DNA from: Nanobdellota archaeon
GTDB lineage: Archaea; Nanobdellota; Nanobdellia; SCGC-AAA011-G17; JACPNG01
Assembly (NCBI GenBank): GCA_038046345.1
Contig: JBBSWJ010000009.1
Span: forward strand, 14,418 to 32,286
Reading direction: 5' to 3'
Length of the DNA: 17,869 nt
The notes under the pieces are model-generated. The model had not been told where the DNA came from. It worked only from the letters and a program-made list of their open reading frames with translations, and did no database searches. Below, in pieces: positions 2,104 to 7,063 of this stretch. The position numbers and the translations under genes are program-made. The first letter of the stretch is position 1; each line of letters begins with the position of its first letter.

Positions 2104-3276
2104 TTATTCAACATCTGCTTTTTCAATGTATTCCTTTAATTGATTCGTAAAGTATGCTGCATCTGCGCCGTCTAAGACTCTATGGTCAAATGTTAAGCTT
2201 AGTGGTATCATTTTTTTTATAACGATCTTACCATTAACTGCTACTGGTTTTTCATATACTCTTCCAAGTGCTAGTATTGCTGATTCTCCTACGTTTATTA
2301 TCGGGCTTGCAAATAATCCGCCAATGCTTCCAACGTTAGTTATTGTAAAGCTCCCGCCTTTTAATTCTTGCATGTCAATTGTTCTGTTTCTTGCTTTTTC
2401 TGCTAGCTCTTTTATTTCTTTATGTATATCACTTATTTTTTTTTCATCTGCGCCTTTTATGACTGGTACTATCAAGCCATCATTTGTTGCAACAGCTATG
2501 CCTATATTATAATATTTTTTTATAACAACACTTTCTCCTTCTAGTACAGAGTTTAGTGTTGGAAATTTTTTAAGAGCTTTAACTACGCATTTTACAATGA
2601 GTGGTAGGTAAGTTACTTTGTTTTTTTCTTTGCATTCATACATCTTGGTCATGTCTGCTTCATCTGTGTGAGTTACAGCTGGGATGCTTGATTGTAATTC
2701 CATATTTTTGGCTATTGTTTTTCTTAGTCCATTCAGTGGTTTTCTATCAACATAACCAAATAAGTCATATTTCTTTGTGATCTTTATTTTTGGTTCTTGA
2801 GTGTATGTTGTTAGCGATGCGTATTCTTGTATTTGTGCTCTATCCAGGTCTTGCATTAAAATTCTGCCGCTTGGTCCGCTGCCCTTCACCTTTGTTAGAT
2901 CAATGCCCATTTTTTTGGCTTGGTGTCTTACTGCTGGTAATGCTATGTTATCATTTTTTTCCTGCGGGTTTTGGATTACTTCTGTTCCTTCTTCAAGTTC
3001 TCCTACTACTGATACTTTTGTTATGTGTACTTTCTCTCCTTTGGCTCCTATTACTACAAGCACTTCACCAACTTTTGCATTTTCTCCTTTTTTTTTATTG
3101 ATCTTTAGTATAGTTCCATCTTTTGGTGATGGTATTTCAACTAGTGCTTTATCTGTTTCAATTTTTAGAATTATTTGATCTTCTTTTACTATGTCTCCTT
3201 CTTTGACTAACCATTCAACAATATCTGCTTCTTCCAGTCCTTCACCAATGTCTGGTAGCCTAAACTCATAAGTCAT
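2104..3276 (-). CDS. pdhC: 2-oxoacid dehydrogenase E2 (dihydrolipoamide acyltransferase) with one lipoyl domain, PSBD and catalytic domain
   Basis: LPDIGEG...IETDKA lipoyl-lysine motif; ALPAVRHQAKKMGIDLTKVKGSGPSGRI subunit-binding domain; FDHRVLDG catalytic motif. Confidence 0.95.
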   Translation of the reverse strand: MTYEFRLPDIGEGLEEADIVEWLVKEGDIVKEDQIILKIETDKALVEIPSPKDGTILKINKKKGENAKVGEVLVVIGAKGEKVHITKVSVVGELEEGTEVIQNPQEKNDNIALPAVRHQAKKMGIDLTKVKGSGPSGRILMQDLDRAQIQEYASLTTYTQEPKIKITKKYDLFGYVDRKPLNGLRKTIAKNMELQSSIPAVTHTDEADMTKMYECKEKNKVTYLPLIVKCVVKALKKFPTLNSVLEGESVVIKKYYNIGIAVATNDGLIVPVIKGADEKKISDIHKEIKELAEKARNRTIDMQELKGGSFTITNVGSIGGLFASPIINVGESAILALGRVYEKPVAVNGKIVIKKMIPLSLTFDHRVLDGADAAYFTNQLKEYIEKADVE

Positions 3277-4250
3277 TAAAATTTCACCACTTTTTTTATT
3301 GCTTCAGCTATTCTGTTTTCGTTTGGTGTGTACAAATCTTCTTGTTTTGCTAATGGTACTATTATATCATATCCAGTTACTCTTATGACTGGGGCTTTTA
3401 GATTTAATAATAAGTTTTCATTGATTGTTGCGCTTATTTCTGCTCCAACTCCAAGAGTATGTTGTGCTTCATGTACAATAACTGCTCTTCCGGTTTTTTT
3501 AACGCTTTGGAGTATCATTGTTTTGTCTAATGGGCTTAATGTTCTAAGATCAATTAGTTCTGCTGATATATATTCATCTTTTAATAATGCCATTGCTTGT
3601 TGGCATTCTCTGACCATTGCTCCGTATGCTATTACTGTTACATCTTTTCCTAAACTTAATTTTTGTGCTTTTCCTATTGGTATGGTATATTCTTTTTCTG
3701 GTACTTCTTGTTTTATTGCTCTGTATATCCGTTTTGGTTCAAAAAATATAACTGGGTCTGGGTCTCTTATTGCGCTTATAATTAATCCCTTTGCATCGTA
3801 TGGAGTTGATGGGATTATTACTTTTAATCCTGGTGTATGGACAAGGTATGTTTCTGGGCTGTCGCTATGATGTTCTAATGCTTTAATGCCTCCGCCTATT
3901 GGTATTCTTACTACCATTGGTGCATGGAAGTTGCCTCGTGATCTGTTTCTTATCCTTGCTGCGTGGTTTATTAGTTGGTCTATTCCTGGGAACATGAATC
4001 CTTCAAATTGTATTTCTGCTACTGGTTTTAATCCTGATGCTGCTAATCCTATTGATGTTCCGATTATTCCTGATTCTGCTAATGGTGTGTCAAATACTCT
4101 TCCTTTGTATAGTTTGTATAAACCGTCTGTTACTCTGAACACTCCGCCGTCAATTCCAACATCTTCTCCTAAGATTATCACACTTTTATCTTTCTTCATC
4201 TCTTGTTTTAATCCAAGATTTATTGCATCTACGATATTAAGCTGCGCCAT
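3276..4250 (-). CDS. pdhB: 2-oxoacid dehydrogenase E1 beta subunit (pyruvate versus branched-chain specificity unresolved)
   Basis: GEDVGIDGGVFRVT, DTPLAESGI, EIQFEGF, EHHSDS, FFEPK, DLRTLSPLD; TAATG overlap with the E2 start. Confidence 0.95.
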   Translation of the reverse strand: MAQLNIVDAINLGLKQEMKKDKSVIILGEDVGIDGGVFRVTDGLYKLYKGRVFDTPLAESGIIGTSIGLAASGLKPVAEIQFEGFMFPGIDQLINHAARIRNRSRGNFHAPMVVRIPIGGGIKALEHHSDSPETYLVHTPGLKVIIPSTPYDAKGLIISAIRDPDPVIFFEPKRIYRAIKQEVPEKEYTIPIGKAQKLSLGKDVTVIAYGAMVRECQQAMALLKDEYISAELIDLRTLSPLDKTMILQSVKKTGRAVIVHEAQHTLGVGAEISATINENLLLNLKAPVIRVTGYDIIVPLAKQEDLYTPNENRIAEAIKKVVKF

Positions 4251-5783: not shown

Positions 5784-6803
5784 CTATTCAGCCTCTGCAA
5801 ATAAATATTTGAATATATCGCCCTCATCTGCTTTTGGTATTGATTCGTATTCTTTTACTGCTTTTTCTATTTCAGCTGCTACTTTTTTTTGAAGTTCTTC
5901 TTCTTGTTTTTTATTCCATATCTTTTTCTTTTCCATGTACTTTCTTAATCTTGTGATCGGATCTTTTTTTATCCATATGTTTAGTTCTTTTTTTGGTCTG
6001 TACTTTTTTGAGTCATCACTTGTAGTATGATCTGAAAGTCTATAAGTTTCTGCTTCTATTAATGTTGGTATACCTTTCAGTGCATCTTTTATTGCATCAG
6101 TTGTTGCTTTGTACACTGCAAAAACATCATTTCCATCAACTTGTATTCCTTTGATCCCGTAGCTTATTGCTTTCTGTGCTATTGTTTCGGATGCTGTTTG
6201 TGATTTTCTTGGTGTTGATATTGCATATTGGTTGTTTTGGCATAAAAATATTACCGGTAATTTTAATGTTCCTGCAAAATTTAATGCTTCGTGAAAATCT
6301 CCTTCACTTGTTGCTCCATCTCCGAAATCTGTTAGTGTTACTTCTTTTTTTCCTTGCAGTTTTAGCCCCCATGCATATCCTGCTGCATGCAGTGCTTGTT
6401 CCGCTACGGTGATGCATACCGGAAATACTCTTATTTTTTTATCGTATTGCATTCCTCGCTCATCTCCGCCCCAGAACATATATTGATTTCTTATTGGAAC
6501 CCCCTTTGTTATCATTCCGCCGTGCATTCTAAAGGATGGAAATAACCAATCCTGTTCTCGTAATGCATAAGCGCTCCCTACATTTGTTGCTTCTTGTCCT
6601 AATAATGATGCATATGTTCCAAGTCTTCCTGTTCTTTGTAGGTTCAGTGCTTTATTATCAAATGCTCTGCTTAGTGTCATGTAATAGTATAGTTCATGTA
6701 TTTGTTTTTTAGAAAACTTTGGTGCTAGTTTGTTGTCTGCTGATCCGTTTTCTTTTAGTATTTCTATTCTTTTTATTTCAAACTTGTAAAGTGTTTTTAT
6801 CAT
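5784..6803 (-). CDS. pdhA: 2-oxoacid dehydrogenase E1 alpha subunit; start revised to 6803 (MIKTLYKF), the track gives 6815
   Basis: GQEA, TPP-binding GDGATSEGDFHEALNFA...NNQYAIS, YRLSDHTTSDD; ATG 6803-6801 overlaps the upstream TGA 6802-6800; its TAG abuts the lipB ATG. Confidence 0.95.
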   Translation of the reverse strand: MIKTLYKFEIKRIEILKENGSADNKLAPKFSKKQIHELYYYMTLSRAFDNKALNLQRTGRLGTYASLLGQEATNVGSAYALREQDWLFPSFRMHGGMITKGVPIRNQYMFWGGDERGMQYDKKIRVFPVCITVAEQALHAAGYAWGLKLQGKKEVTLTDFGDGATSEGDFHEALNFAGTLKLPVIFLCQNNQYAISTPRKSQTASETIAQKAISYGIKGIQVDGNDVFAVYKATTDAIKDALKGIPTLIEAETYRLSDHTTSDDSKKYRPKKELNIWIKKDPITRLRKYMEKKKIWNKKQEEELQKKVAAEIEKAVKEYESIPKADEGDIFKYLFAEAE

Positions 6804-7063
6804 TTTGTTGCCCACTTTTTTAGTTTGGTATAACTCATTGATCCGCAGATTGCTTCTTTTGTTTTTTCATTGAAAAAGAAGGGTACACCGCCGCAGTCTA
6901 TTGTGTCTAATTTTTTAAGAAGTGTAGCATTTTGAGAATTATGCCATGTTTCAAGTTTGGTTATTTTGATCTTTAACTCTTTTTCTAATTTCTCCATAAG
7001 GGGGTACATTTTTTTACAATGGATACATTCAGTACCATAAAAACATAATAAACGACCGCTCAT
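6800..7063 (-). CDS. Small thioredoxin/glutaredoxin-like protein (CIHC), first gene of the dehydrogenase operon
   Basis: FYGTECIHCKKM CxxC at the N-terminus, GGVP cis-Pro motif; SD GAGGTGA ending 4 nt before the ATG. Confidence 0.85.
   Translation of the reverse strand: MSGRLLCFYGTECIHCKKMYPLMEKLEKELKIKITKLETWHNSQNATLLKKLDTIDCGGVPFFFNEKTKEAICGSMSYTKLKKWATK

What the first reader, a model, noticed from the sequence alone, without database searches (positions are those of the whole stretch)
2104..7063. E3-less 2-oxoacid dehydrogenase operon headed by a translationally coupled thioredoxin-like gene
Seen: six minus-strand genes (trx-like, E1a, lipB, lipA, E1b, E2) are joined with no gaps (ATGA, TAG-ATG, 16-nt, 14-nt and TAATG junctions), a hairpin follows E2, and there is no dihydrolipoamide dehydrogenase (E3) anywhere in the window. 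The first gene is an 87-aa CIHC thioredoxin-fold protein with extra Cys at 7, 57 and 73. Established: E3 normally reoxidises E2-bound dihydrolipoamide; dihydrolipoamide can exchange with thioredoxins and glutaredoxins; mycobacterial AhpD takes electrons from lipoylated DlaT. Inference: the Trx-like protein may replace or bypass E3, routing electrons from 2-oxoacid oxidation into thiol pathways instead of NADH. Caveat: E2 keeps its PSBD, so E3 may simply be encoded elsewhere.
Basis: partly seen in the sequence, partly recalled or inferred. Interest (0 to 1): 0.72.

Follow-up and report, generated by a model that had tools for sequence, protein, structure and literature searches.

The report
Thioredoxin replaces E3 in oxoacid dehydrogenase
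Many tiny archaea and one cultured sulfate-reducing bacterium carry a pyruvate-dehydrogenase-type complex that lacks its usual NADH-making third enzyme and instead travels with a small four-cysteine thioredoxin, which probably carries the electrons into the cell's thiol network.

Summary
Observation confirmed and extended. The six-gene operon is intact, and the host, a 97%-complete Woesearchaeales genome, has no E3. In 201 genomes of the order, 51 of 58 with E2 carry this Trx family; in all 43 same-contig cases it lies upstream on the same strand. None of 109 Trx-plus-E1/E2 loci holds an E3. In the control phylum Micrarchaeota, 72 of 74 E2 genomes have an E3-family gene, and the two without carry the Trx. 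The finished genome of Desulfobacca acetoxidans has Trx-E1a-E1b, E2 and TrxR but no Lpd, so incomplete assembly is not the explanation. The Trx has four invariant cysteines (137 of 137), and its E2s carry a private disordered linker motif (76 of 86 against 0 of 21). Best reading (0.7): the Trx reoxidises dihydrolipoyl-E2 and passes electrons to TrxR, peroxiredoxin, RNR or Msr. Against: probably a single origin, true Lpd coexists in some lineages, sister Trx proteins serve other partners, and there is no biochemistry. Not found in print in nine searches.

The parts
7068..7073 (-). Shine-Dalgarno-like GAGGTG, 4 nt before the trx ATG
   Evidence: sequence
6800..7063 (-). Four-cysteine thioredoxin-fold protein, 87 aa: C13-x-x-C16, C57-G-G-V-P61, C73-G74; proposed E3 substitute
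   Evidence: PF00085; AlphaFold model pLDDT 92.5; Foldseek best hit A. fulgidus Trx3, TM 0.80, 24% identity; invariant columns
5784..6803 (-). E1 alpha, 339 aa, ThDP motif at residues 161-191
   Evidence: TIGR03181 above cut-off
5097..5783 (-). LipB-type octanoyltransferase, 228 aa
   Evidence: TIGR00214 above cut-off
4237..5112 (-). LipA lipoyl synthase, 291 aa, both Fe-S motifs and RSSY intact
   Evidence: TIGR00510 above cut-off
3276..4250 (-). E1 beta, 324 aa
   Evidence: PF02779 and PF02780; NF006667 best at 294 bits, under its cut-off of 321
2104..3276 (-). E2 acyltransferase, 390 aa: lipoyl domain (K43), PSBD, catalytic DHR..DG at residues 364-370
   Evidence: PF00364, PF02817, PF00198
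2989..3009 (-). E2 linker motif m1 (VVGELEE, residues 90-96), conserved but disordered; candidate docking site for the Trx
   Evidence: 76 of 86 non-E3-operon E2s against 0 of 21 control E2s; residues 87-107 have pLDDT under 50 in E2 alone
2752..2772 (-). E2 motif m2 (KYDLFGY, residues 169-175), clade marker just before the catalytic domain; probably a structural arm
   Evidence: 83 of 86 against 0 of 21; residues 171-180 ordered at pLDDT 92; E. coli E2 has a similar stretch at this place
2051..2075 (-). 10-bp hairpin 28 nt after the E2 stop; possible transcript end, weak
   Evidence: not called by the terminator scan

Best explanation
A Bacillus/Thermoplasma-type 2-oxoacid dehydrogenase complex in which a dedicated four-cysteine thioredoxin has taken the place of E3. 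E1 decarboxylates pyruvate or another 2-oxoacid and reductively acylates lipoyl-E2 (lipoylated by LipB/LipA, or by an LplA-like ligase in relatives). E2 makes acyl-CoA, which the ADP-forming acyl-CoA synthetase turns into acid plus ATP. The oxidised Trx, perhaps tethered on the E2 linker motif m1, takes the two electrons from dihydrolipoyl-E2 by thiol-disulfide exchange. The reduced Trx is discharged either through thioredoxin reductase running backwards to NAD(P)+ (Trx plus TrxR as a 'split E3') or directly into peroxiredoxin, ribonucleotide reductase, Msr or CcdA-type sinks. Shown: gene content, linkage, absence of E3, invariant cysteines, E2 motifs, presence of the sinks. Inferred: every chemical step, the direction of flow, the substrate and the docking.
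For: (1) No E3 in G000, nor in 30 of 51 Trx+E2 Woesearchaeales genomes from 9 families, 16 of them at least 90% complete; incompleteness would explain about 5.7. (2) The other 21 hold only unlinked PF02852 proteins of two types that fall outside the operon-E3 clade (26 members of these types in a 43-protein tree; type A is closest to mycothione reductase in the PDB). These replace TrxR rather than follow E2: TrxR is found in 6 of 33 genomes with them against 139 of 164 without any PF02852, and in 0 of 10 of those that lack E2. (3) The finished D. acetoxidans genome has Trx-E1a-E1b, an E2 with both motifs, a lipoate ligase/transferase and TrxR, and only two CoA-disulfide-reductase-like PF02852 proteins. 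(4) Linkage: 43 of 43 same-contig cases upstream on the same strand; 109 of 137 Trx loci hold E1/E2 and 6 more hold lip genes; none holds E3. (5) Reciprocal controls: the one Woesearchaeales operon with E3 inside (G075) lacks the Trx; in Micrarchaeota 72 of 74 E2 genomes have PF02852 (66 within 5 kb), and the two without have the Trx. (6) The family is redox-active by its company: fused to MsrB (2 proteins) and to Cys-phosphatases (21) among 27 longer hits, next to an FTR catalytic subunit in 3 Patescibacteria, next to a type-A flavoprotein in 2 Micrarchaeota. (7) E2 has no conserved cysteine, so its lipoyl group is the obvious dithiol partner. (8) Sinks are present: TrxR in 26 of 30 E3-less genomes; G000 has ACD alpha and beta, two Prx, RNR, a CcdA-like protein and no POR (0 of 5 genomes). 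(9) Complex prediction E2 + Trx: weak support, score 0.60 against a best control of 0.34; the mark was reached by 58 of 80 solved complexes and 2 of 110 mismatched pairs, but at 0.60 or under by only 7 of those 80 and by both mismatches; the runs agree in 100% of contacts and partner pLDDT is at least 88. (10) Chemical precedent: reduced lipoyl-DlaT powers AhpD, and can be made through E1 alone (PMC12995895, passages); E. coli lpdA suppressors reduce glutaredoxins through dihydrolipoamide (as described in PMC5315357, passages).
Against: (1) All 85 Trx-type E1s in the tree form one clade (support 0.993), so the swap is probably one event, and linkage and E2 motifs could be inherited baggage; the counts are not independent. 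(2) True Lpd coexists with the Trx operon in some lineages: 23 of 50 mixed genomes have PF02852, about 17 look like Lpd by motif, and 4 of 4 Lpd-looking proteins tested pass TIGR01350 (G215, G249, G209, G408). G215, G217 and G249 have no GcvH, so their Lpd probably serves this E2. (3) One unlinked type-A protein (G092) passes a dihydrolipoyl-dehydrogenase cut-off (NF004944), and 16 of 18 type-A genomes have E2, so type A may act on lipoyl. (4) The family also occurs without E2: 8 of 10 strong Patescibacteria hits; two follow a transketolase. (5) Two E2 genomes lack the Trx without an obvious contig break (G150; G064, whose E1b is broken). (6) In Desulfobacca relatives the Trx stays with E1 (8 of 9 loci) while E2 lies elsewhere. 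(7) No expression or enzyme data. Trx to NAD(P)+ is slightly uphill under standard conditions (recalled potentials).
Confidence: 0.7

Rival explanations
1. The Trx is an accessory (redox guard, repair or assembly factor for the lipoyl arm, E1 or LipA), and an unlinked flavoprotein (type A or B, NDH-2-like, CoA-disulfide-reductase-like, or TrxR itself) does the work of E3.
For: The Trx is kept where a true Lpd is present; type A is enriched in E2 genomes, 16 of 18; lipA directly follows the Trx in 19 of 137 loci; G000 has an NDH-2-like flavoprotein. Thioredoxin protection of mammalian oxoacid dehydrogenases is recalled, from no call.
Against: No single candidate flavoprotein other than TrxR is shared by the E3-less genomes, and low-molecular-weight TrxR works through a thioredoxin (established knowledge). 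E3-bearing operons manage without the Trx (70 of 72 Micrarchaeota lack a strong family hit). LipA is in only 23 of 109 operon loci. Types A and B follow TrxR loss even without E2.
Confidence: 0.16
2. The Trx works on E1, not on lipoyl-E2: it regulates the ThDP enzyme or oxidises its enamine intermediate directly.
For: E1a is the commonest next gene (69 of 137); Trx-E1a-E1b stay together in Desulfobacca relatives with E2 elsewhere; two Patescibacteria cousins directly follow a transketolase; E1a has one cysteine conserved in 93%.
Against: All 7 Desulfobacca-group genomes tested keep an E2; the clade-specific changes lie in E2 linkers, hardly in E1; in G204 and G127 the Trx stays with lipA and E2 when E1 moves; weak predicted E2-Trx contact. 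Whether the E1a cysteine is specific to this clade was not tested.
Confidence: 0.07
3. E3 is simply missing from incomplete assemblies, or the operon is a decaying relic, and the Trx is a hitch-hiker.
For: G000 is in 35 contigs; most relatives are MAGs; one decayed operon (G064) and one broken Trx (G190) were seen.
Against: Finished D. acetoxidans genome and single-contig G001 lack E3; 30 missing against about 5.7 expected; all catalytic motifs intact; four cysteines invariant in 137 of 137 across two domains.
Confidence: 0.04

Closest known systems
Bacillus/Geobacillus-type pyruvate dehydrogenase complex and archaeal OADHC operons (E1a, E1b, E2, E3)
   Same: E1-alpha-x above the TIGR03181 cut-off, E1 beta, E2 with lipoyl domain, PSBD and catalytic motif; best PDB relative of E2 is entry 3duf.
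   Different: No E3 in operon or genome; a four-cysteine Trx heads the operon; E2 has two private linker motifs; hosts are mostly small anaerobic or symbiotic lineages, whereas PMC3904984 (passages) ties archaeal OADHC to aerobiosis.
Mycobacterium tuberculosis E1/DlaT/AhpD/AhpC peroxidase system
   Same: Electrons leave lipoyl-E2 for a dithiol protein, and can come from ketoacid decarboxylation without E3 (PMC12995895, passages).
   Different: Mtb keeps Lpd, so this is a side branch there. The acceptor here has a thioredoxin fold (that AhpD has another fold is recalled), is encoded in the operon, and is often the only visible outlet.
E. coli lpdA suppressors of trxB gor mutants (Feeney et al. 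2011)
   Same: Dihydrolipoamide reduces glutaredoxins when E3 is impaired (second-hand description in PMC5315357; the paper itself was not held).
   Different: A laboratory suppressor using housekeeping glutaredoxins; here a natural, conserved gene set with its own carrier.
Classical thioredoxins (TrxA) and glutaredoxin/NrdH proteins
   Same: Trx fold, CxxC, Pro61 at the cis-Pro position.
   Different: Far below the TIGR01068 cut-off (26.4 against 96.8); no WCGPC; second invariant cysteine pair and E-x-W-H motif; no solved relative above E 3e-5.

Membership tests
Canonical 2-oxoacid dehydrogenase complex | ThDP-dependent E1 (alpha and beta) | tested here: met
Canonical 2-oxoacid dehydrogenase complex | E2 with lipoyl lysine, PSBD and catalytic His motif | tested here: met
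Canonical 2-oxoacid dehydrogenase complex | Lipoylation enzymes | tested here: met
   LipB and LipA above cut-offs; source of the octanoyl group not tested
Canonical 2-oxoacid dehydrogenase complex | E3 (Lpd) encoded in the genome | tested here: not met
Canonical 2-oxoacid dehydrogenase complex | Substrate (pyruvate or branched-chain 2-oxoacid) and NADH output | not testable with these tools
   TIGR03181 names pyruvate, but a family name is not a test
Thioredoxin superfamily | Trx fold with CxxC and cis-Pro loop | tested here: met
   the cis geometry itself was not visible
Classical thioredoxin TrxA (TIGR01068) | Score above cut-off, WCGPC-type site | tested here: not met
   26.4 against 96.8 bits; site is ECIHC
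AhpD-type lipoyl-dependent adaptor | AhpD/CMD family sequence or fold | tested here: not met
   only thioredoxin families and folds hit; it may work like AhpD without being one
AhpD-type lipoyl-dependent adaptor | Reduced by dihydrolipoyl-E2 | not testable with these tools
   weak predicted contact only
Dihydrolipoyl dehydrogenase (for the unlinked type A and B flavoproteins of relatives) | TIGR01350 cut-off, grouping with operon E3s, following E2 | tested here: inconclusive
   0 of 8 tested pass TIGR01350 (two within 3 bits), 1 passes NF004944; outside the operon-E3 clade; follow TrxR loss

The most novel reading that the evidence does not exclude
A third natural way to oxidise 2-oxoacids, beside NAD-linked (E3) and ferredoxin-linked (OFOR) enzymes: a thioredoxin-linked complex whose E2 tethers a four-cysteine carrier on a dedicated linker motif and whose electrons leave only through the thioredoxin network, with TrxR run backwards as a split E3 in ATP-yielding fermentation. 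It arose once and spread through DPANN archaea, some Patescibacteria, Brocadiales and Desulfobacca, and can be tested in cultured D. acetoxidans.
Probability: 0.45. Interest if true: 0.9.

Novelty: new variant of a known kind. Interest (0 to 1): 0.8.

Why it matters
E3 is treated as an obligatory part of every 2-oxoacid dehydrogenase complex. A widespread natural complex without it would join central carbon oxidation directly to thiol redox. It would explain how Woesearchaeales and Aenigmarchaeota that lack both E3 and POR can make acetyl-CoA and ATP, and it would correct reconstructions that score these operons as ordinary or incomplete PDH. It also flags two Lpd-like flavoprotein types as probable TrxR substitutes. 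A cultured carrier with a finished genome (D. acetoxidans; Trx WP_013705259.1, E2 WP_013707798.1) makes the test direct.

Tried and rejected
Viral contigs: 12 pattern matches, none a relative. Plasmids: no match. Sequencing runs: no RNA holder listed, which is no evidence either way. Atlas: four clusters named thioredoxin-domain or hypothetical, no function. Cys7 as a functional cysteine: rejected, private. ATGA coupling as a conserved trait: rejected, gaps vary. Trx as a LipA-only helper: rejected, lipA in 23 of 109 loci. Trx as a lipoyl substitute in an E2-less system: rejected, the Desulfobacca-group genomes have E2 elsewhere. Loss of E3-binding residues in the PSBD: not seen; the Arg at 117 is kept in both groups, and Arg138 falls from 85% to 51% (residue roles recalled). 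Motif m2 as a Trx dock: downgraded to probably structural. The 'Methanosarcinales' titles of four loci were not taken at face value: their gene order matches loci titled Woesearchaeota or Nanoarchaeota. The distance between C57 and C73 could not be measured, as no coordinates are returned.

Rows dropped before counts: 10 of 65 genomes (E above 1e-7, mostly long ORFs) were left out of the 55; G190 (broken copy, E 3e-12) was kept. Twenty to twenty-one loci that duplicate G-handle genomes were dropped. The 86 'Trx-type' E2s are all E2s outside the control set, including some whose Trx is not in the locus; the 21 controls are 20 Micrarchaeota loci (18 with E3 in the operon) plus G075. Types A and B were assigned by motif; 26 such proteins were in the tree. 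Operon regions were fetched for 20 of the 74 Micrarchaeota E2 genomes for the control, and TrxR, POR and ligase spot checks covered only the genomes named.

Literature: nine searches listed no paper describing an E3-less, thioredoxin-linked complex; most subscription papers are not in the library. Seen as passages only: PMC8407392, PMC10936187, PMC12440151, PMC12995895, PMC8421398, PMC3156406, 10.1101/2022.05.20.492899, PMC3904984, PMC5315357, PMC7443923, PMC10266531. Feeney 2011, Maksymiuk 2015 and Bryk 2002 were seen only as reference entries and second-hand descriptions. Supplements were closed and not requested; those of the DPANN papers may list missing E3 subunits. Unpublished genomes: G238 (locus L214) enters the counts, and G279 enters the Micrarchaeota counts; no conclusion depends on either.

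
Full report
1. Observation. Family scans give a weak thioredoxin, E1 alpha (TIGR03181 above cut-off), LipB, LipA, E1 beta and an E2 with lipoyl, PSBD and catalytic domains; all catalytic motifs are present. The hairpin after E2 is a 10-bp stem of modest significance (z -1.99) that the terminator scan did not call.

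2. The host genome. G000 has 821,143 bases in 35 contigs, 97% complete and 0.03% contaminated. The E3 dimerisation domain PF02852 has no match at E<=1, while 14 of 14 control genomes ring. A profile built from relatives' E3-like proteins finds only a TrxR and an NDH-2-like protein in an unfiltered six-frame search. POR_N is missing in this and four other E3-less genomes (0 of 5). The genome has ACD alpha and beta, two peroxiredoxins, SOD, a CcdA-like protein, an NrdH-like redoxin, RNR and TrxR.

3. Linkage in the order. Among 201 genomes, 58 have E2, 55 have this Trx family (after dropping 10 weak hits) and 37 have PF02852. Fifty-one have both E2 and Trx; in all 43 same-contig cases the Trx is upstream on the same strand, 2.2-7.4 kb away. 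The four Trx-only genomes have E1 or lipA next to it. Of the seven E2-only genomes, four have a contig end inside E1a, one is decayed (G064), one is unexplained (G150), and one (G075) has a distantly related operon with E3 inside it and no Trx. The lipoylation genes vary (LipB/LipA or LplA-like) and change place; the Trx stays at the head.

4. Wider range. A scan of GTDB genomes returned at least 592 relatives; the best 80 include Aenigmarchaeota, Undinarchaeales, Micrarchaeota, Patescibacteria, Brocadiales and Desulfobacca, mostly with the same Trx-E1a or Trx-lipA start. Over 137 de-duplicated Trx loci, 109 hold E1 or E2, 6 hold only lip genes at the threshold used, and 22 hold neither (8 short or contig-end loci, 14 other contexts); none of the 109 holds E3, 19 hold an ACD subunit, 4 TrxR, 5 Prx or SOD, 5 a CcdA-like gene and 7 a GDH-family gene. 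In Patescibacteria the operon is rare: 10 of 251 genomes have a strong Trx hit, 4 have E2, and 2 have both, linked.

5. Controls. In the phylum of G214 (Micrarchaeota), 74 of 151 genomes have E2; 72 of these have PF02852, 66 within 5 kb of E2. The two without are G214 (the centre, chosen for its Trx) and G328, which reads Trx-lipA-E1a-E1b-E2. Two E3-bearing genomes (G261, G342) have the Trx elsewhere, 16 and 26 nt before a type-A flavoprotein. G407 is one contig of 3,282,536 bases, the length of the finished D. acetoxidans genome (PMC3156406, passages), and its Trx and E2 are on record under that name. It has Trx-E1a-E1b, an unlinked E2, a lipoate ligase/transferase, TrxR and GcvH-like genes, and its only PF02852 proteins are CoA-disulfide-reductase-like. 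Incomplete assembly therefore cannot be the general explanation; in the order, 30 of 51 lack PF02852 where about 5.7 would be expected.

6. The unlinked 'E3-like' genes. The 21 Trx+E2 genomes with PF02852 carry types A or B (some also MerA). In a 43-protein tree both types fall outside the clade of operon E3s; 0 of 8 tested pass TIGR01350, one passes NF004944; type A is closest to mycothione reductase among solved structures. TrxR is present in 6 of 18 type-A and 0 of 15 type-B genomes, against 139 of 164 genomes without PF02852, and in 0 of 10 A/B genomes that lack E2. They behave like TrxR substitutes. Forty-seven of the 51 operon genomes have one flavoprotein or the other. Kin are not independent, so these are counts, not tests.

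7. Evidence against strict replacement. Of 50 mixed Trx-locus genomes, 23 have PF02852 and about 17 look like true Lpd by motif; 4 of 4 tested pass TIGR01350 (one, G408, is). In Brocadiales it sits beside lipA, and G209 has GcvH; G215, G217 and G249 have no GcvH, so there Lpd and Trx probably share one E2. The E1 tree puts all 85 Trx-type operons and 3 truncated ones in one clade (0.993) apart from 20 Micrarchaeota operons. It is rooted on one long branch and lacks cultured references, but it suggests a single origin, so the many genomes are one experiment repeated by descent and transfer.

8. The Trx. It folds as a thioredoxin (pLDDT 92.5; best Foldseek hit A. fulgidus Trx3, TM 0.80, 24% identity) but is no TrxA. 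C13, C16, C57 and C73 are invariant in 137 of 137; C7 is private. Whether C57-C73 is a second redox pair, a structural bond or a metal site is open. Relatives are fused to MsrB or Cys-phosphatases (23 of 27 longer hits) or sit beside an FTR catalytic subunit, which marks the family as dithiol electron carriers, and also shows it is not confined to lipoyl partners.

9. The E2. Two linker motifs mark this clade: m1 in 76 of 86 and m2 in 83 of 86, against 0 of 21 controls for both. In a model of E2 alone m1 is disordered and m2 ordered; E. coli E2 has a similar stretch at m2. A conserved, disordered motif suggests a binding site. The complex prediction gave weak support: 0.60 against a best control of 0.34; that mark was reached by 58 of 80 solved complexes and 2 of 110 mismatches, but at 0.60 or under by only 7 of the 80 and by both mismatches; the runs agree in 100% of contacts, partner pLDDT at least 88, and no interface was given. 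It does not show that m1 is the site.

10. Mechanism. Most likely (0.7) the Trx reoxidises dihydrolipoyl-E2. Recalled potentials (dihydrolipoamide about -0.29 V, thioredoxins about -0.27 V, NAD(P) -0.32 V) make the first step downhill and the step to NAD(P)+ slightly uphill, which the irreversible E1 step could drive. If the complex feeds ACD for ATP, the flux exceeds what RNR or Prx need, and reverse TrxR or export through CcdA must carry it; in D. acetoxidans, which does not use pyruvate as electron donor, an antioxidant or biosynthetic role is more likely. Rivals: accessory Trx with a hidden E3 substitute (0.16), action on E1 (0.07), artefact or relic (0.04).

11. Known systems and novelty. 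The chemistry has precedent in the mycobacterial DlaT-AhpD-AhpC branch and in E. coli lpdA suppressors (second-hand), both in organisms that have E3. DPANN papers note PDH in some Woesearchaeota and Undinarchaeota without comment on E3 or thioredoxin in the passages read. Nine searches found no description of this operon type. Verdict: a new variant of the 2-oxoacid dehydrogenase complex, well supported by genomics and untested biochemically; interest 0.8.

Noticed in passing
L277:7096-8469, L044, L049 and related loci: Two Lpd/mycothione-reductase-like flavoprotein types (A and B) in Woesearchaeales nearly exclude TrxR (6 of 33 against 139 of 164 genomes), also without E2; candidates for an undescribed archaeal thioredoxin-system reductase.
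   Followed up: partly
P0136, P0146: A eukaryotic member of the four-cysteine family in the red alga Galdieria phlegrea (191 aa, 56% identity), and a second fragment that looks eukaryotic.
   Followed up: no
   Followed up: partly
L366, L367, L368: Patescibacteria three-gene module: sister Trx, FTR catalytic subunit (PF02943) and a rubredoxin-like protein.
   Followed up: partly
L363:455-1782, L364: Family Trx directly after a split transketolase in two Patescibacteria; in L363 an aldolase-like gene follows.
   Followed up: partly
window:7637-8752 and 52-1179: A Glu/Leu/Phe/Val dehydrogenase divergent from the operon and a malic enzyme downstream, both possible 2-oxoacid suppliers. A malic enzyme-acdA-pdh cluster is reported for nanohaloarchaea; whether those carry this Trx was not tested.
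   Followed up: no
window:5097-5783: A LipB-type transferase in an archaeon; the source of its octanoyl donor is unexplained, and no ACP search was run.
   Followed up: no
window:1431-2008 and 16185-16676: A MazE/PemK-type toxin-antitoxin pair converging on the E2 end, and a second small overlapping-style gene pair with no Pfam hit that resembles a RelE-type pair (recalled).
   Followed up: partly
G407 (D. acetoxidans) C1:2838618 and C1:1146410: GcvH-like genes in a finished genome with no Lpd: another lipoyl carrier with no visible flavoprotein partner.
   Followed up: no
genomes of family f7 (for example G006, G034): TrxR in only 1 of 8 and PF02852 in 0 of 8 genomes, two of them 93-97% complete: no recognised disulfide reductase.
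   Followed up: no
window:9608-10995: Two coupled plus-strand ORFs, one with no family hit and one GNAT-like, in the most GC-rich kilobase of the window (0.39); perhaps a recent acquisition.
   Followed up: no
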